Source of the DNA: a virus
Strand: one strand, 5' to 3'
DNA length: 64,000 bases
IMG/VR virus record: IMGVR_UViG_3300023112_000009
Location: 61,610 to 125,609 of that record
This document shows positions 21,919-38,412 of this stretch, piece by piece; within the stretch, counting starts at the first letter, position 1, and every line of letters starts with the position of its first letter. A program made the position numbers and the translations under genes. The notes beneath the pieces are model-generated. The model saw only the letters and a program-made list of their open reading frames with translations, was not told the DNA's origin and ran no database searches.

Positions 21919-22986
21919 ATGAGCACTGATATCACAGGATTTTTCAACGCCCGCACCGATACGGATCAAGCGGCCAAAAGCATCTTCTTGGGTGTCGAGG
22001 GTGAAACCTCAGACCGCATCATTTCCGATCTTCCCACGTTTTTGGAGACTGCCGGGAGAGACTACGGCATCCTTCGGAAGCCCGCACTGGTTCGCGATCC
22101 CTTCGGTGGGGTTGACGCCCAAGGGAACGTCTGTGAGGCGATTCGCGAGGTGGACAATCAATATCACCTCTCCCGCACGAGTGACGGGCGAGTCGTGAGC
22201 CCGCACACTGTCACGAAACAGTACGCCCCTCTCACTTTGATGGACGTGGCAACCGAAATCAAGCCCTGGCTTGACGCGGGTTGGGTGACTCCCGATGCCG
22301 TTTTCAGCGGCAAAAACGAAAGTCTCGAATTGCTCTGTCTCAGGATGGATGCAAACGGTATGCTTCCCAACGGGGAGCAATGGCAACACTACATTATCTT
22401 GCGTCTTCCGCACGCTGCGGGCGGCAAGTGCAAGGGTCAAGTGGTGAATTTCCGTCCCCAGTGTTCCAACGTGTACGCTGCAATCGGACGTGGAAACGAG
22501 TTCACGATCTCTCACAGGATTTCGAGCAAGATGGACGACGCGGAACGTCAAGCCGCAATGCTCGCCCGTGTCAAGATGGCTAAGAACGCCTGGAAGACCG
22601 CACAGGATCACATTGAGGTTCTGGCCCGCAAGGTCAACGCATGGAGCGGGAAAGCTCTCACGGTGACTCAGGCTGTCAACCTCACGAACACCCTTCTGGG
22701 GATCAAGTCTCTTGACGACGCTAGCGGTGTCGCTAAGAACAAACAGGAAGCGATCCTAAACGGGTTCGATCTTCCGGAGTTCGGAACGCACGGGGCCACC
22801 CTTTACGATTGGGTGAACGCTGTCACGTTCTACACGTCAAGCCCTAACTCACCCGTAGTGGCGAAATCTACGGTCAACCCGATTGATCGTATGATCCGCA
22901 ACGTGGATCCCCAGGGTACGGGGTTCAAGATGGAAGACGCGGCCCAAAAGCTTGCGGCCCGATTCCTCGGGGGTGACTTCCAGTAA
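21919..22986 (+). CDS. DUF932/DUF945-like phage protein
   Basis: Y.PL, H..GG, R.QCSN, HGATLYDWVNAVTFY pattern. Confidence 0.6.
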   Translation: MSTDITGFFNARTDTDQAAKSIFLGVEGETSDRIISDLPTFLETAGRDYGILRKPALVRDPFGGVDAQGNVCEAIREVDNQYHLSRTSDGRVVSPHTVTKQYAPLTLMDVATEIKPWLDAGWVTPDAVFSGKNESLELLCLRMDANGMLPNGEQWQHYIILRLPHAAGGKCKGQVVNFRPQCSNVYAAIGRGNEFTISHRISSKMDDAERQAAMLARVKMAKNAWKTAQDHIEVLARKVNAWSGKALTVTQAVNLTNTLLGIKSLDDASGVAKNKQEAILNGFDLPEFGTHGATLYDWVNAVTFYTSSPNSPVVAKSTVNPIDRMIRNVDPQGTGFKMEDAAQKLAARFLGGDFQ

Positions 22987-23041
22987 ATAACCTAGGGGCC
23001 AGGGTTGACAAGCCCTGGCCCCTATGCTATACTGTATTCAC

Positions 23042-23263
23042 ATGGGAAGACATACCATTGGGGACCGACGCGGTTCCGTTCGGGGGGCTCCCCCCGACGT
23101 TTACATGGGGTTTGCATCGGCTGACGATGGGGACTCGGAAGCGATGGACGAAGCCATCACTTTGTTTGGCCGGTTTGTATTGTATGCTGTCGGCTCAATT
23201 GTTCTTGCTACAATCGCGGTAATCTTTTCGGCTGTCGGGTGCATTCCTGATATTTCGGATTGA
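23042..23263 (+). CDS. Small membrane protein
   Basis: Promoter TTGACA-N17-TATACT; C-terminal TM helix. Confidence 0.55.
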   Translation: MGRHTIGDRRGSVRGAPPDVYMGFASADDGDSEAMDEAITLFGRFVLYAVGSIVLATIAVIFSAVGCIPDISD

Positions 23264-23342
23264 TCTTTTTTCAGGGAGTCGCTTGACAAAGCGGCTCCCT
23301 GAGGTATACTGTCAGTGTTCGAGAGGACATGAAAACTCATAT

Positions 23343-23535
23343 GGGGCGGTAGCTCAGTCTGGCCAGAGCGGGGGGATAATCTCCCTCGATCAAAGGGTCT
23401 TAGCTAAGGATGTTTAGGGTAGCTCCCGAAGGTGTCCACGGCAGCAAAATAGTAGCCTATTCTGTTAGATCTAATGATGTTGCTAAATACTAGTACGTGC
23501 AATTTGTCGCAGGTTCGAATCCTGCCCGCCTCACC
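23343..23535 (+). ncRNA. tRNA-like RNA with a ~120-nt insertion
   Basis: GGGGCGGTAGCTCAGTCTGGCCAGAGC 5' half and GTCGCAGGTTCGAATCCTGCCCGCCTCACC 3' half; own promoter at 23283-23310. Confidence 0.75.
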
Positions 23536-23728
23536 TTTTTCCCAGTTTTCACTTGACAGCCTGTAAGGCGTTTTCAGCCCGCGAGGAATATGCCCGCGTG
23601 TCTATACTACGTCCGATTGTAAAAAGGTCGGGAGAACGGCTTAGAGAGCGTCTGAGAGAAAATCGCCCTCTTGAAAAAAGAAAAGGGTTATCTACTTGCT
23701 TTCTGTTCTTTCGAGGGTATACTCTGGC

Positions 23729-24361
23729 ATGACGATCAAAGCACTAGAACAAGCCATCGGCGGGCTTTCCAATCCCTCCAAAATGCCGGGATGGTCCTAT
23801 GGGATCCCGGCTTCCGCGTGCAAGATCGGGGCCATCCTTCGCAAGATCAAGCGTAGCGTGTGCTCCAAGTGTTACGCTTTCAAGGGTATGTATGTTTTCC
23901 CGGTTGTGAAGGAAGCACAAGCCCGTAGGCTTGCCATTCTCACGGGGGATCTTGAAACGTGGCAAGGGGATATGATCCAATTGCTTTCTTTCAAGTATCG
24001 CAAGAAAACGGGGGACGATAGGGTATTTCGCTGGCATGACGCGGGGGATATCCAATCGGAGGATCATTTTCAAGCGATTGTGAATATCGCTCTTGCCCTT
24101 CCCGATATCCAATTCTGGATTCCCACAAAAGAGTATGACCTGATTCGCCAGCACGCCCACAAGGCCCCTGCTAACCTCGTGGTGAGGGTTTCGGCCCCGA
24201 TGCTAGGGGATACCCTTCCCATGATCCCCGGCACGGTAGGGAGCACGGTAGGGACCGGCAAGGGCTTTGTCTGTGGAGCGTACACTCGGGAAGGCAAGTG
24301 TGGACCCTGCCGAGCGTGTTGGGATAAATCGGTGGAATGGGTTGACTATCCCCAGCACTAG
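23729..24361 (+). CDS. Phage GP88-like Cys-rich protein
   Basis: GLSNPSKMPG, C..CSKCYA.KG.Y, FRWHDAGD, CGPCRACWD. Confidence 0.8.
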   Translation: MTIKALEQAIGGLSNPSKMPGWSYGIPASACKIGAILRKIKRSVCSKCYAFKGMYVFPVVKEAQARRLAILTGDLETWQGDMIQLLSFKYRKKTGDDRVFRWHDAGDIQSEDHFQAIVNIALALPDIQFWIPTKEYDLIRQHAHKAPANLVVRVSAPMLGDTLPMIPGTVGSTVGTGKGFVCGAYTREGKCGPCRACWDKSVEWVDYPQH

Positions 24362-24374
24362 GGTATACTAGAGT

Positions 24375-24501
24375 GTCGCTTAGGAAGTGGCCTCGCTGGA
24401 CTCGCAAGAGAATGGTCAGCGTCGGGGGCTCCGATCAAGGGGAAACGGAGAAGCGACTATGAATGAGTGAGGCCCGGTGTCAAAACCGGGTCTCTTCTCT
24501 T
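24375..24501 (+). ncRNA. Candidate small RNA with own promoter and terminator
   Basis: TTGACT..TATACT, then GTCGCTT/AAGCGAC closing stem with two internal hairpins, then a hairpin with pyrimidine tract. Confidence 0.5.
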
Positions 24502-24719
24502 AGACCTCCTGTAAGCTCGCTCACGGCCACCGGCTCAAATCCGCGTGTCTATACTACCTTGTTTTGGACTCGTGCCCGCCTAGGGGCCTTGTAGGCCGCA
24601 CAATGGCTTATCTTATTTCTAGCAAAATCTCCTTGCCTTCCTGTGTTTTGACCGTATAATGTACCCATGAACGCGGACGATCAATACGACTGGTGGGAAA
24701 GCAAACCCAAGGAAAAACA

Positions 24720-25031
24720 ATGAATCAAGTCATCGAATGGATTTGGCAACGGCCCGCACGGGCTTTCAAGGTCTACTACAAGGGCAGCCGCTCCAATGCG
24801 ATCACAGAGAAGTGTATCGAGTGTGCCTGCACGCTCAAGGAGGCCAAGGAGTGTGAGATCTCCGATTGTGCCCTATGGTGCTTCCGTCCCGGTGCTACCA
24901 AGGGAGAGGTTCCCTCGTTCGTACCGCCTCAGGACGAGCTACAAGCCTTGGCAGACGCTAAGGTTCCCGATGCTGTCCGCGAGCACGCTCGCAAGATGGG
25001 CAACGCACGGAAGGAAGCTAGCGAGGAGTGA
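24720..25031 (+). CDS. Cys-rich hypothetical protein
   Basis: AI..KCIEC..C..CALW.FRP motif; GGA RBS. Confidence 0.7.
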   Translation: MNQVIEWIWQRPARAFKVYYKGSRSNAITEKCIECACTLKEAKECEISDCALWCFRPGATKGEVPSFVPPQDELQALADAKVPDAVREHARKMGNARKEASEE

Positions 25032-25084
25032 GGTTTCTCCTAATCCTGCTTGACTTCTACCCATTTCTAGGGTATTATCTAAAC

Positions 25085-25243
25085 ATGAAGAGAAGGAAGA
25101 AAAAGAGAAAGCCCAAGGCGGCTGAACAAGGACAACGGGGGGCAGGAGCTATGGCCAACGCTACCCGTGGTAGGGCACGACGATTCACTGACAAGCCCAA
25201 AGCGGCTAACAAGACAGCCTGTAGGGGCAAGGTAGAACTATGA
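25085..25243 (+). CDS. Small very basic protein
   Basis: Leaderless start after TTGACT..TATTAT. Confidence 0.6.
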   Translation: MKRRKKKRKPKAAEQGQRGAGAMANATRGRARRFTDKPKAANKTACRGKVEL

Positions 25244-25590
25244 GCACGGACGAAATGAATGCGATCCTAGGCCCGTGTCCTATTTGCAAAAAGGTCAAGT
25301 GGTGGTATAATGACTTGCCGCTTAGGGCCTTCTGCTGGGGATCACCAGACGACGAACACAAAGAGGTGTCCAGGGTGGCACCAACACAACGCAAGTACGC
25401 ATGAAAGAACGAATCGAAGCTTTCTTGGCAGCCCTAGCAGCCGCGTCCTACTACGATCCTAGCTCGGATAGCTCAGAAGTATTTCAAGGTATGTTCATCG
25501 AGCCCGATGGGGATTACATTGATAGACAAGAGTTGGAAGCATTAGTGAAAGAACATTTGACTTCCACCGATTAGGTGTTATACTGTAACC

Positions 25591-25821
25591 ATGAGCGAAC
25601 AAATCACAATCACAGAGAAGGTCCGCATTGGACTGGACGAACTGATCGCAGACTACAAAGCCTGTTGGTCATGGCAACACGAAAGCTTCTATTCCTTCCT
25701 GAGTGAGAAGGTGGCAGAAAAACTGGATCGTGAACTGGACAACTTCCAGGTTATGTGCTACTCTGTAGTAGGTCACGAACACGACGCCGTTATCTTTGAA
25801 GTCGAGAGGTACGAAGAATGA
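25591..25821 (+). CDS. Hypothetical protein
   Basis: Leaderless start after TTGACT..TATACT. Confidence 0.7.
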   Translation: MSEQITITEKVRIGLDELIADYKACWSWQHESFYSFLSEKVAEKLDRELDNFQVMCYSVVGHEHDAVIFEVERYEE

Positions 25822-26018
25822 CACTACGCTGCAAAACCTGCAACTCAAGCGACGTTCGGCAAGAGTGGACGGCCATGATTGACCCGAACGACGACGATTG
25901 CATGAAGGACTTTGACCCCACCACGTTGGAGTACAATGAGTTTGAGTACTGTCTTGACTGCGAAGACACGACGGACACCTACGACGACACGATGAAAGAC
26001 TTCAACTATTACGCTTGA
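25818..26018 (+). CDS. Acidic zinc-ribbon protein
   Basis: CKTC..CLDC. Confidence 0.65.
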   Translation: MTLRCKTCNSSDVRQEWTAMIDPNDDDCMKDFDPTTLEYNEFEYCLDCEDTTDTYDDTMKDFNYYA

Positions 26019-26047
26019 CATTCTCTGTTTTCAAGCTATACTAGAGC

Positions 26048-26302
26048 ATGAAGAAAGAAAAACTAGCTCTCATCAAGGTCATGGACGAGTGTTTGTGTTC
26101 GCCTGATGGAATGAGCGACAACGCTTACACGGTAGCATACGCTGCACTCGAAGACGATGATGAGATCGTGGATATCTTGGAAGCCGTAGAGGCGACCGAT
26201 GGACGGTTCTACTTTCCCGAGTGTCATGTGGGCATTGAGAACATGCTCCGCGTAGACGTTGGGAGCCGACACGAACAGGACGAGCAGCCGTCCGAGGGAT
26301 AA
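26048..26302 (+). CDS. Acidic hypothetical protein
   Basis: Leaderless start after TTGACA..TATACT. Confidence 0.7.
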   Translation: MKKEKLALIKVMDECLCSPDGMSDNAYTVAYAALEDDDEIVDILEAVEATDGRFYFPECHVGIENMLRVDVGSRHEQDEQPSEG

Positions 26303-26736
26303 GAACCCAGAACAGGCTGAAACGGTATCTCTCACGCTGGGGAGCGGTAAGGGGGTGCCTTGAAAGGCGGAAGACTAAGCATGGGGTCGTTTGAACCGCT
26401 AATACCTCCCGCGATGGATCGCCCCCGATACGCACGGTCGAGAGGTATACTGCCACAATTGTAGAAGGCTGAGAAAACCCTTTACCTCTTTTTAGAAGTG
26501 CGGGAAAAGACGTTACTGTAAAAATAGGCTTCTGCCATATTGGCATAGGGAAAACTTTTCCACGTCAATTTGGCAGGCTCCTGTAAGCTCGCCTACGGCC
26601 ACGGGCAAAAACGCAGGTAGTATAGACACGCGGGTTTGCCGCCATGCCCGTACAGGGCCGCACAGGACGTGCGAATTTCCAGCAACAAAATCCGAAATCC
26701 GTTTGCTTCTCCCGATTGTGGAGGTATAATGAAGGC

Positions 26737-27282
26737 ATGAAAGCAATCAATCAAGCCACCCTGATCGACACGATCAACGCCGTCAAGGGTGCCACGTTCG
26801 CCACGATCATCACCGAAACCGATGCCCGCCTCAAGAAAACGGGCAACCCCTTCGGTCCCGTCCGCAAGATTTCCCGCGTCAACGTTTGCCTCGGTTTCCA
26901 GTATGAGGCCGCTGTAAATCGTCAACGCATCCGTGAGGATTCCGAGGCCGATTTCGAGGCCCGTCCGCGTCAATGGGGCGAGCGTATCTCGGCCATGCTG
27001 ATCGGGCACAAGGGACGGACCTATCTCGAAACCAAGGTCCAGCGTGCTCTCGAAACGTCCTACATCGACGCCACGGGCAAGGAACTCTCCAAGGAAGATG
27101 TTCGCCCCTTCCTTCCTGCACGCTCCAAGAGCCGTCAAGAGGTCGCGGACGAGGTTATCGTCCGAGACTACGCTCTCGATTCGATCCGCTCGCTGGCCTT
27201 CGGTGGCGAAACGTACCTCTTGACTCAAGCAACGGCACCCGTGGCCGTCAAGATCGCCCGCACTCAACCCGTCACGAAATAA
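26737..27282 (+). CDS. Phage early hypothetical protein
   Basis: 181 aa; ATG 6 nt after TATAAT; YEAAVNRQ and HKGRTYL motifs. Confidence 0.8.
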   Translation: MKAINQATLIDTINAVKGATFATIITETDARLKKTGNPFGPVRKISRVNVCLGFQYEAAVNRQRIREDSEADFEARPRQWGERISAMLIGHKGRTYLETKVQRALETSYIDATGKELSKEDVRPFLPARSKSRQEVADEVIVRDYALDSIRSLAFGGETYLLTQATAPVAVKIARTQPVTK

Positions 27283-27454
27283 AGCCGCCAGGAGGCCCCG
27301 CAAGGGGCCTCTCTTGCGTTGTGCCGCGTCCTAGAAAATCCAAGGTAGTATAGACACGCGGGCGGGCGGGCGGTGGCCGTAGCGGGCAGCACAGGAGCCT
27401 GAAATAAATAAGGTTTAGAGTTTGCATTTTCGAGTGGAGAGGGTATACTGTGGC

Positions 27455-27649
27455 ATGAGTAAAGCACACACATGGAATGGCGAGCCGCCCCGGCACATCG
27501 AATACGCTCGGAACCTCGCCACCCGCTTGGGGAGAGCTAACATCAGCACCCGTATCGGGATGCCGATCAAGAGGATCCCCGTCACTGAAACCATTTCGGA
27601 GAAAACCAAACGCATTCTTGCCGAGTGCGATGCAATTCTCTGCAAGTAA
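27455..27649 (+). CDS. Cassette protein family A, copy 1
   Basis: Paralog of 28638-28832 (PRHIE.A.NLATRLG..TETISEKT.R.LAECDAILCK). Confidence 0.8.
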   Translation: MSKAHTWNGEPPRHIEYARNLATRLGRANISTRIGMPIKRIPVTETISEKTKRILAECDAILCK

Positions 27650-27726
27650 ATCAGAAAAACAGTTTGCCTTTTCCACTGGGGAGGGTATACTGTAATTGTT
27701 CGAGAGAAAACAAACAAAGGAATGCA

Positions 27727-27915
27727 ATGGAATTCAAAGAATGGATGAAAGCGATGAACCGCCACATTTCCGCCAAAATCTGCTTGGATGCTGGCGACAT
27801 GCCCGATCTGTGCTTTCGGGATATGTTCGAGGATGAAATGACGCCGAAAGAAGCGGCGGAAAACTCGCTCGAAATCTGGGCAGAACAAGGGGACGTTCCC
27901 TACGATCTGATCTAA
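27727..27915 (+). CDS. Small acidic protein
   Basis: Own promoter and AAGGA RBS. Confidence 0.7.
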   Translation: MEFKEWMKAMNRHISAKICLDAGDMPDLCFRDMFEDEMTPKEAAENSLEIWAEQGDVPYDLI

Positions 27916-28119
27916 CGCACTAGGAGGCCCCGCAAGGGGCCTCGCTTGCGTTGTGCCGAGACCTAGAAAATCCCGCGTGGCTTAGCCACACGGGGTCAAG
28001 GTCCGTGCCCGTACAGGGCCGCACAGGAGGCCAAAAAAGAATTGGCTTTCTACTTGCATTTTCGAGCGGGGAGGGTATACTGTAGCAGATTCGAGGCCAC
28101 TAACCAACGGAGTAACCGA

Positions 28120-28461
28120 ATGAATCAGAACATCATCAGCACCGATCAAGCCGCCAACCTCATTCACCAGAGCAACGGGACCGTGTTCACGGTCGGGTTC
28201 TACAAAAAGGGGAAAAAGAACGGGGAGGGCAAAAACGACTTCCGCGAAATGCGTGCTCGCCTCGGCAGCACGGTTCGCAAGGGGCTTGCGGGTGGCCCGC
28301 CCGCCTACAACCCTTCCGAGCACGGGCTTATCTGGGCCTACCTTATGGCGGGGGATGAGAACCGCGAAGAGGCCCGCAACCGCCGTAGCATCCCGGTGAG
28401 CGGCATCGTGGAATTGAACATCGGTGGCGAGTCCTATCGGGTCGCCGGATCGCCCCACTAA
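28120..28461 (+). CDS. SH3/WYL-like beta-barrel protein
   Basis: FTVGFYKK..REM.ARLG..RRSIP..I..L.I.G pattern. Confidence 0.6.
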   Translation: MNQNIISTDQAANLIHQSNGTVFTVGFYKKGKKNGEGKNDFREMRARLGSTVRKGLAGGPPAYNPSEHGLIWAYLMAGDENREEARNRRSIPVSGIVELNIGGESYRVAGSPH

Positions 28462-28637
28462 AAAACACCGCAGGAGGCCCCGCAAGGGGCCTCTCTTGCG
28501 TTGTGCCGCGTCCTACAAAATCGTGCGTAGTATAGACACGCGGGCGAGCCGCCCGTGCCCGCACAGGGCAGCACAGGAGCCTGAAATAAATAAGGTTTAG
28601 CGTTTGCTTTTCTAGCTCACGAGGGTATACTGTCAAC

Positions 28638-28832
28638 ATGAAAACAAAGAACATCACGGAGTACAAGGCTCCCCGTCACATCGAATTCGCACAGAACCTC
28701 GCCACCCGTTTGGGCAAGGTGGGAATCAGCACCCGCATCGGAAGGCCGGTCAAGGTGGTGATCGTGACCGAAACCATTTCGGAGAAAACCCGCCGCGTGC
28801 TCGCTGAGTGCGATGCAATTCTCTGCAAGTAA
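28638..28832 (+). CDS. Cassette protein family A, copy 2
   Basis: Paralog of 27455-27649. Confidence 0.8.
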   Translation: MKTKNITEYKAPRHIEFAQNLATRLGKVGISTRIGRPVKVVIVTETISEKTRRVLAECDAILCK

Positions 28833-28912
28833 AATCCAGAAAACAGTTGCCCTTCCCGCTGGGGAGGGTATACTGTAACGGTTCGAGAGACAGCAAACCA
28901 ACGGAGACAACG

Positions 28913-29164
28913 ATGGAACACGACGACGGCCCGGAAGAGTTGTGGGATGATGCGGAAGAGTTCGAGCGTGACGAGCTTGCACGGTTCTTAGCGGCCTATC
29001 CCGATGGCTGGACATGTCAGGATTGCTCCTGCGAATACCTGCCGGGAGAATGCCATCCCGTCATGCCAGCCGAAGACCTAGACGGTTGGGTTGCTGGTGA
29101 CGGCACGGTTTGTCCGCTGGGCCACGGATGCAAAGAGGACGAGGCCGAGGATCTGCCCTTCTGA
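28913..29164 (+). CDS. Acidic Cys-containing protein ending EDEAEDLPF
   Basis: Promoter and GGAG RBS. Confidence 0.7.
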   Translation: MEHDDGPEELWDDAEEFERDELARFLAAYPDGWTCQDCSCEYLPGECHPVMPAEDLDGWVAGDGTVCPLGHGCKEDEAEDLPF

Positions 29165-29801
29165 TGGACGAGATAGAATTCTGCAAGAGGCAGGCGAAAG
29201 CCTGTCTCTTGTTTCTAGTGCTCTTGCCCGTGGGCGTTGTTGTCGCCGTGCTTTGGGTTTACGGTTTTTAGCCACAGGAGGCCCCGCAAGGGGCCTCGCT
29301 TGCGTTGTGCCGCGTCCTACAAAATCGTGCGTAGTATAGACACGCGGACAAGGGGCCGGTGGCCGTACACGCCAGCACAGGAGGCCAAAAGAAAAACCAT
29401 TTGCTATTTGCTTTTTCAAGGGGTTGTGGTATACTGTGGCATGGATGAACGACAAGAGCTTGAAGACGAATACAACGCCCGCTATGGCGATCCTCGCCAC
29501 TGCCCGCATCACCCGATGGTGCAGACCTCTTCGGGTTGCGGCAACTTCGATGCCCCTTGTGGGCTTTGCGAGTCCGAGATGGACGAGTACGATACGGTGG
29601 ATCCCGATTGGGTTCCCGAGCCGTGGGTTGCTCCCGAAGAGGACGAGGCCGAGGATCTGCCCTTCTGATGGACGAGATAGAATTCTGCAAGAGGCAGGCG
29701 AAAGCCTGTCTCTTGTTTCTAGTGCTCTTGCCCGTGGGCGTTGTTGTCGCCGTGCTTTGGGTTTACGGTTTTTAGCCACAGGAGGCCCCGCAAGGGGCCT
29801 C
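29133..29801 (+). repeat. Exact 165-bp direct duplication (29133-29297 = 29637-29801) containing a 35-aa TM peptide ORF
   Basis: Identical text at a 504-bp offset; ORFs 29164-29271 and 29668-29775. Confidence 0.92.
29441..29668 (+). CDS. Acidic Cys/His protein ending EDEAEDLPF
   Basis: Leaderless start; CPHH..CGLC. Confidence 0.7.
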   Translation: MDERQELEDEYNARYGDPRHCPHHPMVQTSSGCGNFDAPCGLCESEMDEYDTVDPDWVPEPWVAPEEDEAEDLPF

Positions 29802-29944
29802 TCTTCCGTTCTCCCGCGTTCTACAAAATCGTGCGTAGTATAGACACGCGGGCGGGCGGGCCGTGCCCGTAGCGGGCCGCACAGGAGGTCAAAAAGATTT
29901 GGTTTTCCATTTGCTTTTCTAGCTTCCTAGGGTATAATGTAAAC

Positions 29945-30073
29945 ATGAACAACAAGGAAGACAAGCGGATCGGCAAGAAGGCACTGGGCCACACTCCCCA
30001 CTGCAAGTGGGGCCGCAAGAAAGCCAACAAGAAAAGCCGCAGTGTTGCGAAAAAGGAGTTGCACAATGTATAA
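29945..30073 (+). CDS. 42-aa basic peptide
   Basis: ATG 6 nt after TATAAT. Confidence 0.55.
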   Translation: MNNKEDKRIGKKALGHTPHCKWGRKKANKKSRSVAKKELHNV

Positions 30074-30293
30074 CGACGATTGGATGGATCCCGAGCCCGA
30101 GGAAGAGGTTGAGCCCATCAACCCCGAAGGGGACAAGGGACCGAACTACCTCCCCGACCCCGACCTTGACGGTCCCTACAAGGGTCCACCCGTGGGCACC
30201 TATGCCTACACCGCTTGGCTGATGGCTCAATCGGGCATGGATCCTGACGAGGCCGACGCCTGGAAGGACGAGATGAAAGAGCGAGATTTTTAG
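30066..30293 (+). CDS. Acidic protein with PEGD.GPNYLPDPDLD motif
   Basis: Motif shared with 34855-35100. Confidence 0.7.
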   Translation: MYNDDWMDPEPEEEVEPINPEGDKGPNYLPDPDLDGPYKGPPVGTYAYTAWLMAQSGMDPDEADAWKDEMKERDF

Positions 30294-30503
30294 TCAACAG
30301 GAGGCCCCGCAAGGGGCCTCTTCTGCTTTGTGTCGCATCCTACAAAATCGCAGGTAGCTTAGCCACGCACGATTGAGGCCACGCCCGCACGCGGCAGCAC
30401 AGGCAGCCACAGGGCAAACAAAAGAAATCACAAATACCATTTGCTTTTTCCAGCGGTTGTGGTATACTCTCGGTGGATTCAACAACAGCAACGGAGACAA
30501 GAC

Positions 30504-30683
30504 ATGCAAATCACCATCACCACGATTGACGACTCGGACGACGACTGCCGCAGGACCACCTACGAGACCCGCGTGGACGGCAAGCTCTACACGCTCGCCG
30601 CGTGCTCCCTTCGAGGGGAAGGCGTTGAGGAACGTGCTCGCGAGTTGTTCGGTGACGACGTGGAAATCGTTTGGGAATTCTAA
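30504..30683 (+). CDS. Cassette protein family B (DCRR motif), copy 1
   Basis: Paralog of 32018 and 39087. Confidence 0.78.
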   Translation: MQITITTIDDSDDDCRRTTYETRVDGKLYTLAACSLRGEGVEERARELFGDDVEIVWEF

Positions 30684-30757
30684 AGAAAGGACTTGCATCT
30701 GCCCGATACAGTGGTATACTGTTAGTGAGTCAAGGAAACAACACAACGGAGACAACA

Positions 30758-30973
30758 ATGAACGAGCAAAACGAAATCGGCGGCGACCTTCAAGACGAGT
30801 ACACCGCCATTCAAGAGGCCGAGCTTCTCGAAGAGAGTCCGATCATGGACCTCACCGATCAAGACTTGGAGGGCTGGTATCAGGAATGGCTCTCCGAGCA
30901 GGACGATCCCGCGAGCATCGACCCGGACTTTTACGATCCCCGCGTGGACTTCGGCCCCGATCCCCGCGACTAG
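30758..30973 (+). CDS. Highly acidic protein (MNEQNEI start)
   Basis: N-terminus shared with 35591-35764. Confidence 0.7.
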   Translation: MNEQNEIGGDLQDEYTAIQEAELLEESPIMDLTDQDLEGWYQEWLSEQDDPASIDPDFYDPRVDFGPDPRD

Positions 30974-31184
30974 CACACTTGTTGCTTCTCTCCTATGCTC
31001 CCTGGCGATTTAGGTCGTCAGGGGGCCTTTCCATGTGCCTAGGAGGCCGCAGGACGAGGGCTGCAAAAATCAAGGTAGCTTAGCCACGCAGGGTGAAGGC
31101 CCGTGCCCGTACAGGGCAGCACAGGAGCCCAAAAGAAATCACAAATGGAATTTGCTTTCTAGCCAATTGGGAGTATTATTGGGC

Positions 31185-31661
31185 ATGAGAAACAAGCAAC
31201 AGATTCAGGGCCAAGCGAGGGCCATCCTGAACAAACTCGCCCCGCAGTACCCCGTGCTGGCAAACCTGCCGATTCGCATTTCGACCCGTATGACACGGGC
31301 CGCTGGTCAGGCTTCCTGGCGAGGTGGTATCCCTGTCGAGATCACCCTTTCGCTCCCTTTTTTCGCAGATGAGGCGAACGACCTACATCGTACCGTAACG
31401 CATGAGGCGGCTCATATCGTCGCTGGCCACGCTGCTGGTCATGGCCCCACGTGGAAGGCTGTACACCGTAGCATGGGCGGCAAAGGCGACCGCTGCCACA
31501 CTATGAGCCTTGCGGAAGGTTTCAAGCATACTCCCCGCAAGCGTGCCCCGCGTGTCGAGGTGACTTGCCCCAAGTGTAGCCAACCGATGCTGCTGGGGCC
31601 TACGCAAGCCAAGAAGGCACAACGGGGCTATCGCTACACGCACGCACGCTGCCCGAGATAG
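31185..31661 (+). CDS. SprT-like zinc metalloprotease
   Basis: RMTRAAG, TVTHEAAH, GHGPTWK, RCH, CPKC. Confidence 0.88.
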   Translation: MRNKQQIQGQARAILNKLAPQYPVLANLPIRISTRMTRAAGQASWRGGIPVEITLSLPFFADEANDLHRTVTHEAAHIVAGHAAGHGPTWKAVHRSMGGKGDRCHTMSLAEGFKHTPRKRAPRVEVTCPKCSQPMLLGPTQAKKAQRGYRYTHARCPR

Positions 31662-31720
31662 GGTAAAGAAAAATCCCTTCTCCCGCTTGACTTCAAGCGG
31701 GGGGAGGGTATACTGCAAGC

Positions 31721-31930
31721 ATGAAAGAACAAACAACATTCGTCCTTCGCAACACGGGCACCTCGCGATTCGTCAAGACGAGCCCCCACGAGTTCCTTGA
31801 CGAGAACTTTGTCGAGGGGTGGGATAACCTCGCGGCTCGTGGTGCTCTGACCTTCGGGACGCACGAGGCGGCTCTGATCGCCAAGGATGCTGACCCCGAT
31901 GGCTGCTCTCTCGCTGTCGAGGAAATCTGA
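31721..31930 (+). CDS. Hypothetical protein
   Basis: Leaderless start after TTGACT..TATACT. Confidence 0.7.
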   Translation: MKEQTTFVLRNTGTSRFVKTSPHEFLDENFVEGWDNLAARGALTFGTHEAALIAKDADPDGCSLAVEEI

Positions 31931-32017
31931 TAAACAAAACCCTTTTCCCGCTTGACATTCGGCGGGGATGGGGTATACTGTCAGCGTTCAAGGAAACAAC
32001 AGCCAAGGAAACAAGCC

Positions 32018-32224
32018 ATGAAACTTCAAATCGAATACAACGACGCCTGCCGCAGGACCACCTACGAGTCTGACGACGACTGCCGCCGCGTGGACTACTG
32101 CGTGACCGTGGACGGCAAGGAATACTGCCTTTCCGGTTCTGCTCTCGGCAACGAGCACAACGACCGCGAAGCCACCGAGCGTGCTCGCGAGTTGTTCGGC
32201 CCCGACGTTGAGCTGATCTTCTAA
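32018..32224 (+). CDS. Cassette protein family B, copy 2
   Basis: DDDCRR..VDGKEY..ERARELFG. Confidence 0.78.
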   Translation: MKLQIEYNDACRRTTYESDDDCRRVDYCVTVDGKEYCLSGSALGNEHNDREATERARELFGPDVELIF

Positions 32225-32697
32225 GAGGCTGCCAGAATGGCGGGGGCCACGGCCCCCGCTGAGCCCCCTGCCTGCCCCCACACGGGGAGCGGCCCCGACC
32301 CCCTGTGGCTTAGCCACGCGGGCACGGCACTCGTGCCGGTAGAGCGTATCCCAGGCCCCTTGTGATGCCTGCTATGCGTTACGCTTTTTCGGTTTCTCGC
32401 TTGACTTCTGCCAATCGCATGGTATACTGTGGCATGAAGTTGAGCAAAGAAGATATGGAGTTCGCCCACGACACTATCCACGGTGCCCGCGAATACGCCG
32501 AATCCGCCTAACATGTACTCACTGACCTACAACGGAGAGCAACTGGCCGAGTGGACTATCCCACGCGGTTGGCTGCCCTCCTTTGGTACGCTGCTGGCCG
32601 TGAAATATCACGGTAGGCTGACGCTATTTCGTGCGATGGGAATTCAAGAAAGGGAAATTCTGCTTGACATCTACCAATCGTAGGGTATACTGTGGGC

Positions 32698-32895
32698 ATG
32701 AAGCAACAAGAAACAACCGAGTTCGCACAAGCCGTCGCCGGGAACTGTGACCGTTGGGTGCCCGCCTGTGGTGGCCACGAGCAACCGTTCACCCACAACG
32801 GCACTCGCTATCTGTACTGCTTCAACCCAAACAAGCACGAGCACGGGTATATCAATCTGGACACCGATATTCTGGAGACCACGCTGCCCTTCTGA
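32698..32895 (+). CDS. Cassette protein family C, copy 1
   Basis: Near-identical to 35142-35348 (WVPACGGHEQP..RYLYCFNP..HEH.Y.NLDTD). Confidence 0.8.
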   Translation: MKQQETTEFAQAVAGNCDRWVPACGGHEQPFTHNGTRYLYCFNPNKHEHGYINLDTDILETTLPF

Positions 32896-33074
32896 ATCCG
32901 AGACCACGAGGAGGCCCCGAAAGGGGTCTCTCGTGCGTTGTGCCGCGTCCTACAAAATCGCACGTAGTATAGACACGTTGGCTTGCGGTTCGTGGCCACC
33001 ACGGGCTGCACAGGAGGCCAAAAAGAATTACCATTTACAATTTGCTTTTTCCAGCGTGGAGGGTATACTCTAGC

Positions 33075-33221
33075 ATGGTTGAAGAAAACAAAGCACTGAC
33101 GAAGGCGGGCTGGGTTCTGGTTCGCATCACTGACGCCCAAGGCTTGGTTGTCTTTTGTGAGACGGTCAGGGACGAGGACGCCGAAAGCATCATCGCCAAG
33201 TTCCGCAACACAATTCGCTAA
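33075..33221 (+). CDS. Cassette protein family D, copy 1 (48 aa)
   Basis: G.V...TD..G.VV..ETV...DAE shared with 34702-34845. Confidence 0.68.
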   Translation: MVEENKALTKAGWVLVRITDAQGLVVFCETVRDEDAESIIAKFRNTIR

Positions 33222-33261
33222 AACAACTGGACACGCCCCCGAAAGGGGGCTATACTCTGAC

Positions 33262-33444
33262 ATGCACATTCACGACCCCGACTGGACAGGCCCTATCTGT
33301 CGCAACTGTACCGCCCCCGTCAAGAGCCTGCACATGATGGCACAGCATCAAGAGGCTTGGAACAAAGCGAAAGCGAAAGATTCCGAAGCAAAGGAACCGC
33401 CGCACTTCTGCTCAAACCAGTGCGTCTACGACAAGTACATGTAA
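33262..33444 (+). CDS. Small zinc-finger protein
   Basis: CRNC..FCSNQC. Confidence 0.65.
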   Translation: MHIHDPDWTGPICRNCTAPVKSLHMMAQHQEAWNKAKAKDSEAKEPPHFCSNQCVYDKYM

Positions 33445-33679
33445 AACAAGGCCCCTAGCTCTGCTGGATCACAACAAGAGAACCGGCTCTCTCTGTTCAC
33501 TGATCGAAGCCGCTAGGGGCCTTTTCTACCCACCTGAGAGCCCGCGTGCCGAGCCCTACAAAATCGCAGGTAGCTTAGCCACGTTGGCTTGCAGCCGGTG
33601 GCCGCACACGCCCGCACAGGAGGCCAAAAGAAATCACAAATGGTATTTGCTTTTTCGAGCGTGGAGGGTATACTCTGAC

Positions 33680-33874
33680 ATGCAAGAACAAACAAACCCC
33701 TTTGAAAAGGGAACTGACAAACACGCCCAATGGGAAGAGTTGGATTGTCACGAGTGCCGAGCCGCACTGAGTGATTCGATGTATCCCCGCCATAGTGGCA
33801 GCCGCAACTGCAATAGTGGCAGTATCGCCTCTGGCGGCAACAGATCGCACTGCACTTGCGACACTTGTTTCTAA
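33680..33874 (+). CDS. Small Cys/His-rich protein
   Basis: CHEC..P.H..S.NC.SG..HCTCDTCF. Confidence 0.7.
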   Translation: MQEQTNPFEKGTDKHAQWEELDCHECRAALSDSMYPRHSGSRNCNSGSIASGGNRSHCTCDTCF

Positions 33875-34217
33875 ACACCGCAGGAGGCCCCGCAAGGGGC
33901 CTCTTTTGCGTTGTGCCGAGAGCTACAAAATCGCAGGTAGTATAGACACGTTGGCAAGAGGTCGGTGGCCACCACGGGCCGCACAGGAGCTTTCTCTTTT
34001 TCTTATTTCAAGCTTGCATTCTTGTCAATTGAGGGTATACTCTGGCATGGATACAACAAAAGAAAATCTCAAGGTCGGCCTCGGAATCCTCCTGCCCTTC
34101 TACGTGATCGCGGCGGCCTACTGCTTCGAATTGTTTATGCGATATTTCGCTTGACATTTCGAGCGGAGAGGGTATACTCTCACTGTTCAAGAGCAACCGA
34201 AACCAACAGAAAGCAAC

Positions 34218-34484: not shown

Positions 34485-34701
34485 GACTGCCAGAATGGCG
34501 GGGGCTACGGCCCCCGCTAGGCCGTCTCTCTGCTCGTGTGCTGGCCCCGAGCCGATGCCCGCGTGGCTAAGCTACGCGGGGTGGGCGGTGGTCGCGGCAC
34601 GCGGCCTCCTGGGTGCCTTGTGGGGCCTGCTATGGCTTATCTTTTTTCGAGCTTTCTCCCTTTTCCATTTGCATTATCCGCTGGACGTGGTATAGTCTAG
34701 C

Positions 34702-34845: not shown

Positions 34846-34854
34846 GAGCATCCA

Positions 34855-35100: not shown

Positions 35101-35141
35101 TTTTCCGTTTGCTTTTCTCGCCCACCGTGGTATAGTAGAGC

Positions 35142-35348: not shown

Positions 35349-35590
35349 ACACGAGGAAAAGAAAAATGCGAGACCCTCCAAAACGAGGCTATACGCGGCC
35401 TAGCCCACCGCACGATTTTTTGGCACTGGAGGCTCCACAAGGGGCCTCGTTTGCGTTGTGCCGAGACCGGCAAAAATCAAGGTAGCTTAGCCACGCGGGA
35501 AAAACGTAACGCCCGCACGGGGCCGCACAGGAGGTCAAAAAGATTTGGTTTTCCATTTGCTTTTTCCAGCGGATAGGGTATAATACAAAC

Positions 35591-36061: not shown

Positions 36062-36232
36062 TCGCCTCACGAGGCCCCGCAAGGGGCCTCCCTTGCGTTC
36101 TCCCGAGTCCTACAAAAACGCAGGTAGCTTAGCCACGCGGGCGGGCGGGCCGTGGCCGTAGCGGGCCGCACAGGAGGTCAAAAAGATTTGGTTTTCCATT
36201 TGCATTTCTAGCATAGCGTGGTATACTGGGGC

Positions 36233-36364: not shown

Positions 36365-36558
36365 GTCGCACACGAGGCCCCGCAAGGGGCCTCTCTTGCG
36401 TTGTGCCGAGAGCGGCAAAAATCAAGGTAGCTTAGCCACGCGGGAAAAACGTAATGCCCACACGAGGCAGCACAGGAGGCCAAAAAGATTTGGTTTTCTA
36501 CTTGCTTTTCTAGCACAATCGGGTATACTCTCAATGTCTCAAACAACGGAGAAAAGAC

Positions 36559-36813: not shown

Positions 36814-37164
36814 AGCCACGAGGAGGCCCCGCAAGGGGTCTCCTTTGCTCTGTGCCGAGACCTACAAAATCGCAGGTAGCTTAGCCACGCTGATTTCCCG
36901 CCATGCCCGCACGCGGCAGCACAGACAGCCACAAGCCAATTTCTCTTTTTCAAGCTTTCTCCTTGTGTTTTCTCTGTTGGGCGGTATACTGAAACATGAA
37001 GAAACTACTTGTTGCAGCCGCTTGGACATACGTCGCTCTCTACGCTTTCGAGCTTTACATGAGGTATTCTTCGTGAAAGTTTTTCGAGGAATCATGTGGG
37101 CAATTGCCATAGAACTTTCCGTAGTTTGCATTTGCTTTATTGCGGTGACGTGCTATAATAGAGC

Positions 37165-37923: not shown

Positions 37924-38412
37924 GACATGAACCAGAAGCGAACACGCCGCCACGCTATGAAGCACGAAACAGACAACGGGGGCGATGCCCTAGACATAGG
38001 TAAGCGTATGGCGGGGGCTGGTGTCCTACTGATGACACTAACGCCGATTGCACTAGTGATATCCGTACTATGGGTTTCATGCACGCAAGCCTAAAAGAGC
38101 ATGGGGGTCGCTGTGATGCGTCTCCCTGCCCTTGTGCCGCGTCCGCTGAAAAAACAGATAGTATAGACACGTTGGTTTGCAGTTCGTGCCCTTAGAGAGC
38201 TTCCCAGGATTTGCTAGCAGTGGGAATACCTTCTTTAATGCACCCTCATGTGGAACATTTTTCCGTACCGTTTCCGCACACGGAAATTTTTTCTGTACCA
38301 TTTCCGCACGCGAAAATTCTTCCATTTTCCTGCCATTATGGCATAATCGGCCAATATGGCAATTCGCCTATATTCGGGCTTTTCTCTCAAGTTCATTTTT
38401 CGAGAATTCCCC

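What the first reader, a model, noticed from the sequence alone, without database searches (positions are those of the whole stretch)
24505..26670. The element is a ~90-bp dyad whose central segment occurs in both orientations between same-orientation flanks
Seen in sequence: the copy centred at 26623 is symmetric about the core centre. CCTGT at -43..-39 mirrors ACAGG at +39..+43, and ACGGCCAC at -28..-21 mirrors ATGCCCGT at +21..+28. The copy centred at 24551 has the same left flank (CTCCTGTAAGCTCGC..ACGGCCAC) at identical offsets and GTGCCCGC at +21..+28. Its inner ~40 bp is reverse-complemented (CGCGTGTCTATACTAC instead of GTAGTATAGACACGCG). The core at 34563 is also flipped, and the copy at about 23560-23660 appears wholly inverted. 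Inference: the inner segment has been inverted between the arms, or the site works in either orientation, as expected for a symmetric multimeric complex or an invertible switch.
Basis: partly seen in the sequence, partly recalled or inferred. Interest (0 to 1): 0.8.

Follow-up and report, generated by a model that had tools for sequence, protein, structure and literature searches.

The report
Repeated phage promoter cassettes, some inverted
An uncultured marine phage separates about twenty tiny early genes with copies of one control module (hairpin, conserved 13-base box, promoter), and a few copies carry the upstream block backwards because of old recombination, not because it is a flipping switch.

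Summary
The sequence facts are right. The stated motifs sit at the stated offsets around 26623 and 24551. The 16-bp core occurs 14 times against 0.23 expected, and a profile finds 19 full copies plus 2 partial ones, all within window 23.5-38.2 kb.

The family is not a ~90-bp dyad. Extended symmetry beats background only in copy 26617 (22 of 38 pairs; 0 of 2002 background places reach this).

There are three architectures:
- L-core-R: 15 copies.
- Whole-block inversion R'-core'-L': 23595, 24542, 34560, plus partial 32305.
- One chimera, R'-core-R: 26617.

Orientation at 23595 and 24542 is the same in contigs from 4 of 4 other runs. No serine or tyrosine recombinase is in the 125.6-kb record.

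Each copy sits about 100 bp upstream of a sigma-70-type promoter placed 5-6 nt before an ATG. Related contigs swap whole gene cassettes between these modules.

Closest known: PeSL promoter/stem-loop cassettes of T4-type phages (PMC2839356). The extra feature is a conserved near-palindromic box, GTRGCTWAGCYAC, whose role is inferred, not shown.

This scan has noted PeSL-like arrays before on other DNA. Interest is modest.

The parts
23544..23670 (-). Inverted block (R'-core'-L'), variant-1 core at 23595-23610. Promoter TTGCTT-16-TATACT starts at 23718; ATG at 23729 (GP88-like gene).
   Evidence: Profile hit on the minus strand, model 15-141, E 3.5e-20. Right flank matches RC(L) with z 6.3. Promoter.
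24503..24623 (-). Inverted block (R'-core'-L'), variant-1 core at 24542-24557. It has its own plus-strand terminator-like hairpin upstream at 24469-24494. Promoter TTGCCT-16-TATAAT at 24655; ATG at 24667.
   Evidence: (minus strand, model 6-152, E 1.2e-19). Colinear in 4 of 4 runs.
26578..26668 (+). Chimeric 'dyad' copy (R'-core-R): an inverted R-type arm replaces hairpin L. Direct variant-1 core at 26617-26632. Promoter TTGCTT-16-TATAAT at 26725; ATG at 26737.
   Evidence: Extra minus-strand partial hit to model 99-155 at 26543-26606, E 7e-4. 22 of 38 dyad pairs, with 0 of 2002 background places reaching this. Same arrangement in contigs Ga0164315_10002983 and Ga0255048_10057921.
27290..27399 (+). 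Direct module L-core-R, variant 1, core at 27345. -10 at 27444; ATG at 27455.
27922..28031 (+). Direct module with a perfectly palindromic core GTGGCTTAGCCAC (27977). -10 at 28076. No ATG follows; there is a conserved GATTCGAG leader instead.
   Evidence: (new hit at window 27911-28064).
28472..28581 (+). Direct module, variant 1, core at 28527. -10 at 28626; ATG at 28638.
29276..29385 (+). Direct module, variant 1, core at 29331. -10 at 29430; ATG at 29441.
29780..29889 (+). Direct module, variant 1, core at 29835. -10 at 29933; ATG at 29945.
30299..30408 (+). Direct module, variant 2 (GTAGCTTAGCCAC), core at 30354. -10 at 30463.
31020..31129 (+). Direct module, variant 2, with a divergent left hairpin, core at 31075. 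-10 TATTAT at 31174; ATG at 31185.
32300..32389 (-). Partial copy: palindromic core GTGGCTTAGCCAC at 32305 plus an inverted-L-type right flank. Promoter TTGACT-16-TATACT at 32423; ATG at 32434.
   Evidence: partial hit, E 8e-4; right flank matches the 34560 right flank, z 11.5.
32909..33018 (+). Direct module, variant 1, core at 32964. -10 at 33064; ATG at 33075.
33515..33624 (+). Direct module, variant 2, with a divergent left hairpin, core at 33570. -10 at 33669; ATG at 33680.
33882..33991 (+). Direct module, variant 1, core at 33937. -10 at 34036; ATG at 34047.
34517..34647 (-). Inverted block (R'-core'-L'), variant-2 core read GTGGCTAAGCTAC on the plus strand (34563-34575). Promoter TTGCAT-16-TATAGT at 34691; ATG at 34702.
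   Evidence: minus strand, model 5-133, E 1.6e-16; right flank matches RC(L), z 7.7. Compared with a close relative, the locus is identical over about 410 bp except for 5 changes within 18 bp at the core.
35427..35536 (+). Direct module, variant 2, core at 35482. -10 at 35579; ATG at 35591.
36069..36178 (+). Direct module, variant 2, core at 36124. -10 at 36222; ATG at 36233.
36372..36481 (+). Direct module, variant 2, core at 36427. -10 at 36524; ATG at 36534.
36821..36930 (+). Direct module, variant 2, core at 36876. -10 at 36985; ATG at 36996.
38103..38212 (+). Last, degenerate direct copy (ATAGTATAGACAC, core at 38158). No promoter was found behind it.
   Evidence: (E 3.7e-25).

Best explanation
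**What the copies are**
The flagged sequences are copies of one composite intergenic control module. It is repeated about 20 times in the GC-richer, ORFan-filled early region of an uncultured marine lytic phage. Relatives have contigs of about 160-183 kb.

**Anatomy of a standard copy, left to right**
1. An A-rich leader after the previous stop codon.
2. An 8-bp GC hairpin with a GCAA loop (called L). It is inferred to be the terminator or attenuator for the upstream gene.
3. An A-tract.
4. A conserved box: either GTAGTATAGACAC or the near-palindrome GTRGCTWAGCYAC.
5. A spacer of fixed length but variable sequence.
6. A small GC hairpin followed by CACAGGAGG (called R).
7. An A/T-rich stretch.
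8. A sigma-70-type promoter, TTGCWT-16-TATAMT, ending 5-6 nt before the ATG. A leaderless mRNA is inferred.

**What it does**
The module gives each micro-gene its own start and stop signals. As about 170 bp of dispersed homology, it is also the seam at which related phages gain, lose and replace cassettes. That is the PeSL principle.

**Where the orientation variants come from**
They are fixed products of past recombination between copies:
- three whole-block inversions, plus one partial, that left the promoter in place;
- one chimera whose left arm is an inverted R arm. This is the only true long dyad.

Nothing points to an active invertible switch.

**Shown versus inferred**
- Shown: the repeat family, its anatomy, its orientations, cassette mosaicism among relatives, and its tie to one promoter class.
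- Inferred: promoter and terminator activity, leaderless starts, and any protein binding to the box.
For: **Family and anatomy**
-. There are 19 full profile hits with E 6e-45 to 1.6e-16. Eighteen of them were the training copies, so they match by construction; one is new (27911-28064).
- All copies lie within window 23.5-38.2 kb.
- 13 typical direct copies align without gaps from about -55 to +55.

**Hairpin L**
- It is fully paired in 13 of 13 typical copies, with 3 G.T and 0 A.C cells.
- In the inverted copy 34560 its 3 non-Watson-Crick cells of the A.C/G.T kind are again G.T on the plus strand.

**Promoters**
- 26 promoter-like sites against 8.1+-2.8 in shuffles, 22 of them on the plus strand.
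- 36 TTG-N3/16-18/TATAAT-like sites on the plus strand. 16 of 19 element-linked sites have TTGCWT against 3 of 17 element-less ones (Fisher p 1.4e-4).
- The box centre lies 101-105 nt before the start codon in 11 of 13 direct copies with a start codon. It lies 113-114 nt before it in the other two (30354, 36876) and in the dyad copy 26617, and 116-133 nt before it in the three inverted copies and the partial one.

**Orientation**
- whole-block inversions; dyad symmetry is rare; fixed in 4 of 4 runs; the 26617 chimera and the 34560 inversion are kept in relatives.

**Mosaicism**
- Long related contigs share blocks at 98.7-100% identity. These are interrupted by replaced cassettes. For example, window 32440-35930 is replaced by about 2.5 kb of other cassettes in Ga0164315_10002983, and the same alternative is seen in Ga0164320, Ga0164318, Ga0209834 and Ga0190359.
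- Block ends fall at gene stops, module edges or promoters.
- Paralogous micro-genes occur in shuffled order.

**Gene content**
- Of the 43 array ORFs scanned, none has a Pfam match above the curated cut-off. In one search two array ORFs did: the GP88-like gene and a SprT-like gene.

**PeSL definition and behaviour**
- PMC2839356: abstract and sections 13 and 16 read.
Against: - No transcript data exist, so promoter, terminator and leaderless starts are consensus-based inferences.
- The conserved box, the fixed-length spacer and the CACAGGAGG motif are not needed for a plain promoter/terminator cassette. This account leaves them unexplained.
- The right flank of 24542 does not match inverted L directly (z 0.2-1.2). 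It is assigned only through 34560.
- Short contigs that 'skip' between elements (28579 to 29891, and others) could simply be a paralogous element mapped to its best copy, or an assembly jump at a repeat. They are weak evidence on their own.
- The long contigs are assemblies too.
Confidence: 0.7

Rival explanations
1. Operator reading, compatible with the main account. The 13-bp box is the binding site of a dimeric host or phage DNA-binding protein. That protein coordinates, insulates or times about 20 early promoters. A symmetric binder would explain why the block is tolerated in either orientation.
For: - Among distinct copies in the window and related contigs, oriented with the genes, variant 2 reads: GTAGCTTAGCCAC 23, GTGGCTTAGCCAC 7, GTGGCTAAGCCAC 3 (after removing 1 from an unrelated contig), GTAGCTAAGCCAC 1, GTGGCTAAGCTAC 1.
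- That gives the IUPAC palindrome GTRGCTWAGCYAC with a free central base.
- In more distant relatives the box and the adjacent A-tract stay while the arms diverge.
- Conserved blocks are separated by a spacer of fixed length and variable sequence.
- The box is tied to the promoter class with the weaker -35.
- RNAalifold finds no consensus RNA fold.
Against: - Variant 1 (GTAGTATAGACAC; 16 direct and 2 inverted copies) is not palindromic.
- The box lies about 104 nt upstream of the start, which is far for a classical activator or repressor.
- Inverted copies break both distance and helical phase (116-133 nt).
- No DNA-binding domain was found in 43 array ORFs.
- At orthologous loci the box is no better conserved than its surroundings: 7.5% of cells are variable.
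- The host is unknown, so no host regulon could be checked.
Confidence: 0.3
2. Active invertible switch: the centre or the whole block flips by site-specific recombination between inverted arms within a population.
For: Copy 26617 has significant inverted arms. The core is found in both orientations next to the same left arm. At 34560 a close relative differs by 5 changes within 18 bp at the core, inside about 410 otherwise identical bases.
Against: - The 23595 and 24542 orientation is identical in 4 of 4 runs.
- The 26617 and 34560 architectures are kept in relatives.
- No strand-changing joint is among the 15 listed.
- No resolvase or integrase domain is in the record.
- 16 of 19 copies lack significant arms.
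- The segment holds no promoter or gene whose direction would matter.
- The changes are not a clean inversion.
Confidence: 0.03
3. Selfish miniature palindromic element (MITE, Correia or ERIC-like) that inserted in either orientation next to pre-existing promoters and was then amplified.
For: About 110 bp, non-coding, intergenic, in both orientations. Some copies have inverted arms. The element is absent from distant relatives that carry the GP88-like gene.
Against: - Most copies have no terminal inverted repeats above background.
- No transposase was found.
- No copy lies outside the array in 125.6 kb.
- The block is tightly tied to one promoter class at a fixed distance. So it spreads together with the promoter as one unit.
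- Target-site duplications were not searched for systematically.
Confidence: 0.1
4. Structured RNA element: a processing site of the RNase III type, a stabiliser, or an antisense terminator formed by the box hairpin plus the T-run on the minus strand.
For: - Hairpin L wobbles are G.U on the plus strand.
- On the minus strand, the box plus the A-tract scores as terminator-like in 8 copies: 5 of variant 2 (including the 10-bp stem at 27977) and 3 of variant 1.
- The A.C mismatch of GTAGC..GCCAC becomes G.U in antisense RNA (read directly from the sequence).
Against: - No Rfam match at E up to 1 in 20-40 kb apart from a tRNA.
- No consensus fold for the 19 copies.
- Per-copy MFE folds differ, with no strand preference.
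- Covariation is weak: score 0.130 against 0.120 shuffled, reached by 122 of 500 shuffles.
- Variant 1 cannot form the box hairpin.
- There are no minus-strand genes nearby.
Confidence: 0.1

Closest known systems
PeSLs (promoter-early stem-loops) of T4-type phages; Arbiol et al. 2010, PMC2839356 (abstract and sections 13, 16 read); Comeau et al. 2014, PMC4122927 (abstract and outline read)
   Same: - Repeated motifs of about 100 bp concentrated in a hyperplastic, ORFan-rich region.
- Each combines a sigma-70-like early promoter, an upstream A/T-rich stretch and a stable GC stem-loop.
- Each is placed directly in front of small genes of unknown function.
- Close relatives differ by insertion, deletion or replacement of genes between the motifs.
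   Different: - There is an extra conserved 13-16-bp box with flanking blocks between hairpin and promoter. The unit is much longer and more uniform: about 170 bp, aligning without gaps.
- The start codon sits 5-6 nt after the -10 element with no Shine-Dalgarno sequence. PeSLs end with a Shine-Dalgarno sequence.
- The upstream block is inverted in 3-4 copies while the promoter stays in place.
- The phage's terminase and portal matches are not T4-type.
- Promoter and terminator activity and mini-circles are untested here.
SAS/ESAS repeats of Cluster K mycobacteriophages; Pope et al. 2011, PMC3203893 (passages found by term search)
   Same: - Imperfect inverted repeats with a variable spacer, repeated in front of many genes.
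- Almost all in one orientation, with rare copies on the other strand.
- Conserved among relatives. Function unknown to the authors.
   Different: ESAS lies immediately upstream of a translation-start motif. Here the box lies about 104 nt upstream of the start and upstream of a promoter. There is no sequence similarity.
Stoperators of Cluster A mycobacteriophages (PMC9283540, PMC6550527; search listing and abstracts only)
   Same: A short site, asymmetric in one of its two forms, repeated many times across a transcribed region and mostly in one orientation relative to transcription.
   Different: Stoperators are bound by an immunity repressor of temperate phages. No repressor or lysogeny gene was seen here. 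Binding is untested.
Small hairpin-associated inversions and miniature palindromic repeats such as Correia or ERIC elements (recalled; no call)
   Same: A central segment found in both orientations between inverted arms. Intergenic palindromic units found in either orientation.
   Different: Only 1 of 19 copies has significant arms. No evidence of independent transposition.

Membership tests
PeSL (promoter-early stem-loop cassette) | Repeated motif concentrated in a variable, ORFan-rich region, directly upstream of small genes | tested here: met
   All 19 full and 2 partial copies lie in window 23.5-38.2 kb. None of the 43 array ORFs scanned has a Pfam match above the cut-off; only the GP88-like and SprT-like array genes did.
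PeSL (promoter-early stem-loop cassette) | Sigma-70-like -35/-10 promoter with an A/T-rich region upstream | tested here: met
   19 of 20 copies are followed by TTGxxx-16-TATAAT-like sites. Region-wide, 26 sites against 8.1 expected. The A-rich stretch is visible. Activity was not tested.
PeSL (promoter-early stem-loop cassette) | Stable stem-loop acting as terminator or attenuator | tested here: inconclusive
   The 8-bp GC stem with GCAA loop is fully paired in 13 of 13 typical copies. Only 2 L hairpins pass the T-tail rule of the terminator scan. Function was not tested.
PeSL (promoter-early stem-loop cassette) | Shine-Dalgarno sequence and start codon at the 3' end of the motif | tested here: not met
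   The ATG lies 5-6 nt after the -10 hexamer in most copies, with no room for a Shine-Dalgarno sequence.
PeSL (promoter-early stem-loop cassette) | Close relatives differ by indels or replacements bounded by the motifs | tested here: met
   Blocks at 98.7-100% identity alternate with replaced cassettes in Ga0164315_10002983. Ga0255049_10000300 shows mixed blocks at 83-98% identity. Four further contigs share the alternative arrangement. Supporting short-contig joints are, with the caveats stated.
PeSL (promoter-early stem-loop cassette) | Host phage belongs to the T4 superfamily | tested here: inconclusive
   rIIA/rIIB, RNA ligase, endonuclease VII-like, dCMP deaminase and NAMPT are present. 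But terminase and portal match generic PHROGs, and a 249-aa sigma factor is present.
PeSL (promoter-early stem-loop cassette) | Mini-circles formed by recombination between neighbouring motifs | not testable with these tools
   This needs PCR on virion DNA.
Site-specific invertible switch (Hin/Gin/fim type) | Inverted repeats bounding the invertible segment | tested here: not met
   Significant in 1 of 19 copies.
Site-specific invertible switch (Hin/Gin/fim type) | Serine or tyrosine recombinase encoded nearby | tested here: not met
   PF00239 and PF00589: 0 matches in the 125.6-kb record. The controls rang in 12 and 14 of 14 genomes. The record is 69% complete.
Site-specific invertible switch (Hin/Gin/fim type) | Both orientations at one locus within a population | tested here: not met
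   Contigs of 4 of 4 runs are colinear at 23595 and 24542. Contigs cannot show minority forms.
Integron attC cassette array | Integron integrase, and attC sites with R''/L''/L'/R' boxes at the 3' end of promoterless cassettes | tested here: not met
   No tyrosine recombinase. Each cassette has its own promoter. The GTTRRRY core site was looked for by eye only, in the consensus, and was not seen. That motif is recalled.
MITE-type palindromic element | Terminal inverted repeats, target-site duplication, dispersed insertion sites | tested here: not met
   Arms are at background level in 16 of 19 copies. No copy lies outside the array. Target-site duplications were not searched for systematically.

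The most novel reading that the evidence does not exclude
The near-palindromic box, with its fixed-geometry flanks, is the recognition site of a dedicated phage or host protein. That protein could be a regulator, or one of the phage's many HNH or endonuclease-VII-type nucleases. On this reading the array is a purpose-built, recombinase-free cassette-exchange and co-regulation system. The box's asymmetry could be flipped by short-tract conversion between copies paired in either orientation. This would fit the 5-changes-in-18-bp patch at the 34560 locus and the opposite core orientation at the GP88-downstream locus of a distant relative.
Probability: 0.12. Interest if true: 0.7.

Novelty: new variant of a known kind. 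Interest (0 to 1): 0.33.

Why it matters
- It extends the PeSL principle (mobile promoter/terminator cassettes that let phages shuffle small early genes) to an uncultured marine phage lineage. This lineage seems to use leaderless early genes.
- It adds a conserved, unexplained 13-bp box that could be tested as a shared control site for about 20 promoters.
- It is a worked example of how a repeat family with partial self-symmetry can mimic an 'invertible segment'.
- For the scan, the specific claim of a flipping dyad can be set aside.

Tried and rejected
- **Rfam.** With E up to 1 on 20-40 kb, only the tRNA at 20006 matched.
- **RNA folding.** RNAalifold on 19 copies gave no consensus pairs. 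Per-copy MFE folds showed no common structure or strand bias.
- **Phage database.** Blastn of 23000-30900 gave no match.
- **Exact 14-mer scan of IMG/VR.** 37 single hits, with no flank similarity by eye.
- **Distant relatives.** The GP88-like loci L046-L059 have no profile hits. No analogous arrays were found in L047, L050 and L051, 3 of the 14 loci examined.
- **Half-site mosaic cores.** The forms seen turned out to lie only in unrelated chance-hit contigs, so that argument was dropped.
- **Orthologous substitution profile.** The core is no better conserved than its neighbours, so this is uninformative for selection.
- **Sigma-54 reading of TGG-N10-GC upstream of the -35.** By eye it fits about half of the copies only, and it leaves the universal TATAMT unexplained. 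The consensus is recalled.
- **SPO1-type middle promoter AGGAGA-N17-18-TTTNTTT.** 0 matches in the genome. The consensus is recalled.
- **NtcA, IHF and Fis consensus sequences.** Compared by eye (recalled); no fit.
- **Archaeal host.** Suggested by one source name, 'Nitrososphaera sp.', on a partial terminase. Rejected because of the sigma factor, the peptide deformylase and the bacterial-type promoters.
- **RNA runs.** No RNA holder is listed for the stretch.
- **Fetching more of contig Ga0233414_10000005.** The record is not held.
- **Minus-strand ORF 26079-26546 as a divergent gene served by the left arm of 26617.** No Pfam match and no convincing promoter by eye. Left open.
Full report
**Setting**

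The window is bases 61610-125609 of a 125.6-kb IMG/VR virus record rated 69% complete.

The record encodes:
- rIIA/rIIB, NAMPT, large terminase and portal;
- a 1097-aa DNA polymerase, a primase and ribonucleotide reductase;
- PhoH, peptide deformylase, RNA ligase and a 249-aa sigma factor;
- many HNH nucleases;
- in the window itself, 15 tRNA genes.

Terminase relatives are all uncultured, on contigs of up to 183 kb.

Between about 22 and 38 kb of the window the GC content rises to 0.52-0.575, against 0.44-0.49 around it. This stretch is filled with small plus-strand ORFs. Of the 43 scanned, none has a Pfam match above the curated cut-off. In one search only the GP88-like and SprT-like genes did.

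**The observation**

The family is far beyond chance:
- The 16-bp core occurs 14 times with up to 3 mismatches, against 0.23 expected.
- A degenerate 14-mer occurs 17 times in the whole record, always inside the array.
- A profile built from 18 copies recovers them, which is by construction. It adds one new full copy at 27911-28064 and two partial matches.

**Anatomy**

Thirteen typical direct copies align without gaps from about -55 to +55 around the core. From left to right the unit consists of:
1. an A-rich leader;
2. hairpin L, AGGAGGCCCC-GCAA-GGGGCCTCT;
3. GTGCCG.G.CC and an A-tract;
4. the core;
5. a 12-nt spacer of variable sequence;
6. a small GC hairpin followed by GCACAGGAGG (called R);
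7. an A/T-rich stretch;
8. TTGCWT, exactly 16 nt, then TATAMT;
9. an ATG 5-6 nt later.

The box centre lies 101-105 nt before the start codon in 11 of 13 direct copies that have one. In the other two (30354, 36876) it lies 113-114 nt before it.

There are two discrete core types:
- GTAGTATAGACAC, which is not palindromic;
- GTAGCTTAGCCAC, a near-palindrome.

Two copies in the window read the perfect palindrome GTGGCTTAGCCAC.

**Is it a 90-bp dyad?**

I counted complementary positions outside the inner +-7 bp, taking the best of 17 centres.
- Only 26617 exceeds every one of 2002 background places in the same region (22 of 38).
- Copies 30354 and 33570 are marginal (19 of 38).
- The other 16 copies score 13-17, against a background mean of 14.4 and maximum of 20.
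- Among 49 distinct copies from related contigs, 3 reach 21 or more. One of these is the orthologue of 26617.

So long dyad symmetry belongs to a few copies, not to the family. The symmetric part that is general is the 13-bp box of variant 2.

**What the flipped copies are**

The profile aligns 23595, 24542 and 34560 on the minus strand over model positions 5-152.

Pairwise flank tests against shuffles give the following.

| Comparison | z |
|---|---|
| 24542 left flank vs reverse complement of an R arm | 7.3 |
| 24542 left flank vs 26617 left flank | 14.5 |
| 34560 right flank vs reverse complement of L | 7.7 |
| 23595 right flank vs reverse complement of L | 6.3 |
| 24542 right flank vs 34560 right flank | 11.5 |
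| 24542 right flank vs R on the same strand | 2.2-3.2 |
| 24542 right flank vs inverted L directly | 0.2-1.2 |

The alignment shows the 34560 flank covering the hairpin and its upstream leader.

Hence there are three architectures:
- L-core-R, 15 copies;
- R'-core'-L', 3 copies plus the partial 32305;
- R'-core-R, only 26617.

But the right-hand sides are of different kinds, so a simple inversion of an inner segment does not connect them.

A plausible origin for 26617 is recombination between an inverted copy and a direct copy. It would occur at the short A-tract/T-tract similarity next to the core. This is inference.

**Fixed or switching?**

Contigs of four runs from four studies were laid on 22500-38800.
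- The 23595 and 24542 loci are covered colinearly with 9, 9, 10 and 4 differences in all. The fourth contig covers only 24542. A flipped variant-1 core alone would cost 10.
- None of the 15 joints listed changes strand; 26 more were not shown.

Related long contigs keep the 26617 chimera and the 34560 inversion. No resolvase or integrase domain is in the record. Contigs cannot exclude a rare minority form.

Over longer evolutionary distances the picture is less rigid.
- At the locus downstream of the GP88-like gene, a relative with about 67% nucleotide identity has the same R'-type left arm followed by a direct variant-2 core.
- At 34560 a close relative is identical over about 410 bp, except for 5 changes within 18 bp at the core: GTGGCTAAGCTAC against GTGGCTTAGCCAC.

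For the near-palindromic box, 'orientation' rests on only three positions.

**Function of the module**

The promoter scan finds 26 sigma-70-like sites against 8.1 expected, 22 of them on the plus strand.

An unbiased list of 36 plus-strand sites splits into two classes. TTGCWT is the -35 hexamer in 16 of 19 element-linked promoters, but in only 3 of 17 element-less ones, which mostly have TTGACW (p 1.4e-4). The inverted blocks precede the same class. So the block and the promoter are one evolutionary unit, and inversion happened inside that unit.

Hairpin L is fully paired in 13 of 13 typical copies. Its wobble pairs are G.U on the plus strand both in direct copies (3 against 0) and in the inverted copy 34560 (3), as expected for an RNA hairpin read from the plus strand. 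The numbers are small.

**Cassette exchange**

A pattern scan of metagenome contigs returned 32 contig stretches. 19 of them hold profile hits, up to 17 hits per stretch, and 13 are chance matches.
- Ga0164315_10002983 is colinear with window 25320-38325 in blocks of 98.7-100% identity (one block at 91.9%). These are interrupted by replaced cassettes. For example, 3.5 kb with six elements is exchanged for 2.5 kb with four.
- The same alternative arrangement recurs in four other contigs.
- Block ends lie at gene stops, at the left edge of the module, or in the promoter and first codons.
- Short contigs join equivalent offsets of different copies: +52/+56 in all four runs, +33/+66, and +83/+91. 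These could also reflect best-paralogue mapping or assembly at repeats.
- Paralogous micro-genes occur in different order within the window.

This is the behaviour described for PeSLs (PMC2839356, sections 13 and 16).

**The box**

I oriented copies with the genes. After removing 3 copies from unrelated contigs there are 53 distinct copies.
- Variant 1: 16 direct and 2 inverted.
- Variant 2: GTAGCTTAGCCAC 23, its reverse complement 1, GTGGCT(T/A)AGCCAC 7 and 3, and GTAGCTAAGCCAC 1.

Variant 2 therefore fits GTRGCTWAGCYAC with a free centre, as a symmetric protein site would. In the most distant relatives the box and the A-tract persist while the arms change.

Several points weigh against a simple operator:
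- variant 1 is asymmetric;
- the site lies about 104 nt upstream;
- inverted copies break the spacing;
- no DNA-binding domain was found in the array;
- orthologous comparisons show no extra conservation.

RNA readings are weak. I rate 'protein site' at about 0.3 and leave the role of the box open.

**Verdict**

This is a PeSL-like family of terminator/box/promoter cassettes in a marine phage, with whole-block inversions and one chimeric dyad copy. It is not an invertible switch. It is a new variant of a known kind.

The scan has already noted PeSL-like arrays in other phages, and the same array was noted on this window.

Noticed in passing
window 23343-23535: A tRNA gene interrupted by an insert of about 110-137 nt in the anticodon region, with its own TTGACA-16-TATACT promoter at 23283-23310. 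ARAGORN misses it by default. It calls it only when introns are allowed: tRNA-Ser(act), 110-nt intron, weak anticodon stem. In one related run the stretch 23369-23506 is replaced by 20 letters, and other relatives carry different tRNAs here.
   Followed up: partly
window 24667-25031: The leaderless ORF starting at 24667 is frameshifted in the window. All four related runs have an extra G after 24709, which joins it to the ORF at 24693-25031. This is either a pseudogene or an assembly error.
   Followed up: partly
window 23305, 27686, 28076, 28869, 31974, 34173 (-10 starts): A second cassette class. The promoter is followed not by ATG but by a conserved leader, GTNNNNGTTCGAGA(G/A)..., or GATTCGAG, or GTTCAAG. 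The same leader occurs in a related contig. It could be a leader carrying a Shine-Dalgarno sequence or the start of a small RNA.
   Followed up: no
window 22000-38000: The early array is 5-10 points richer in GC than the rest of the phage: 0.52-0.575 against 0.44-0.49.
   Followed up: no
window 29635: All four related runs carry an 18-nt insertion here. It resembles the T-rich tail of the inverted-type blocks (GGCTTATCTTTTTTCGA).
   Followed up: no
whole record: Few genes outside the array have a visible Shine-Dalgarno sequence: about 2 of the 33 upstream regions I looked at by eye. Together with the leaderless early genes, this points to a host that makes little use of Shine-Dalgarno sequences. 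One partial terminase relative is labelled 'Nitrososphaera sp.' by its source, probably a binning artefact.
   Followed up: partly
L041 (IMG/VR contig): An unrelated viral contig has tandem copies of a unit of about 16 nt containing AGTATAGACACGTCAC. This is a chance match to the core and looks like iterons.
   Followed up: no
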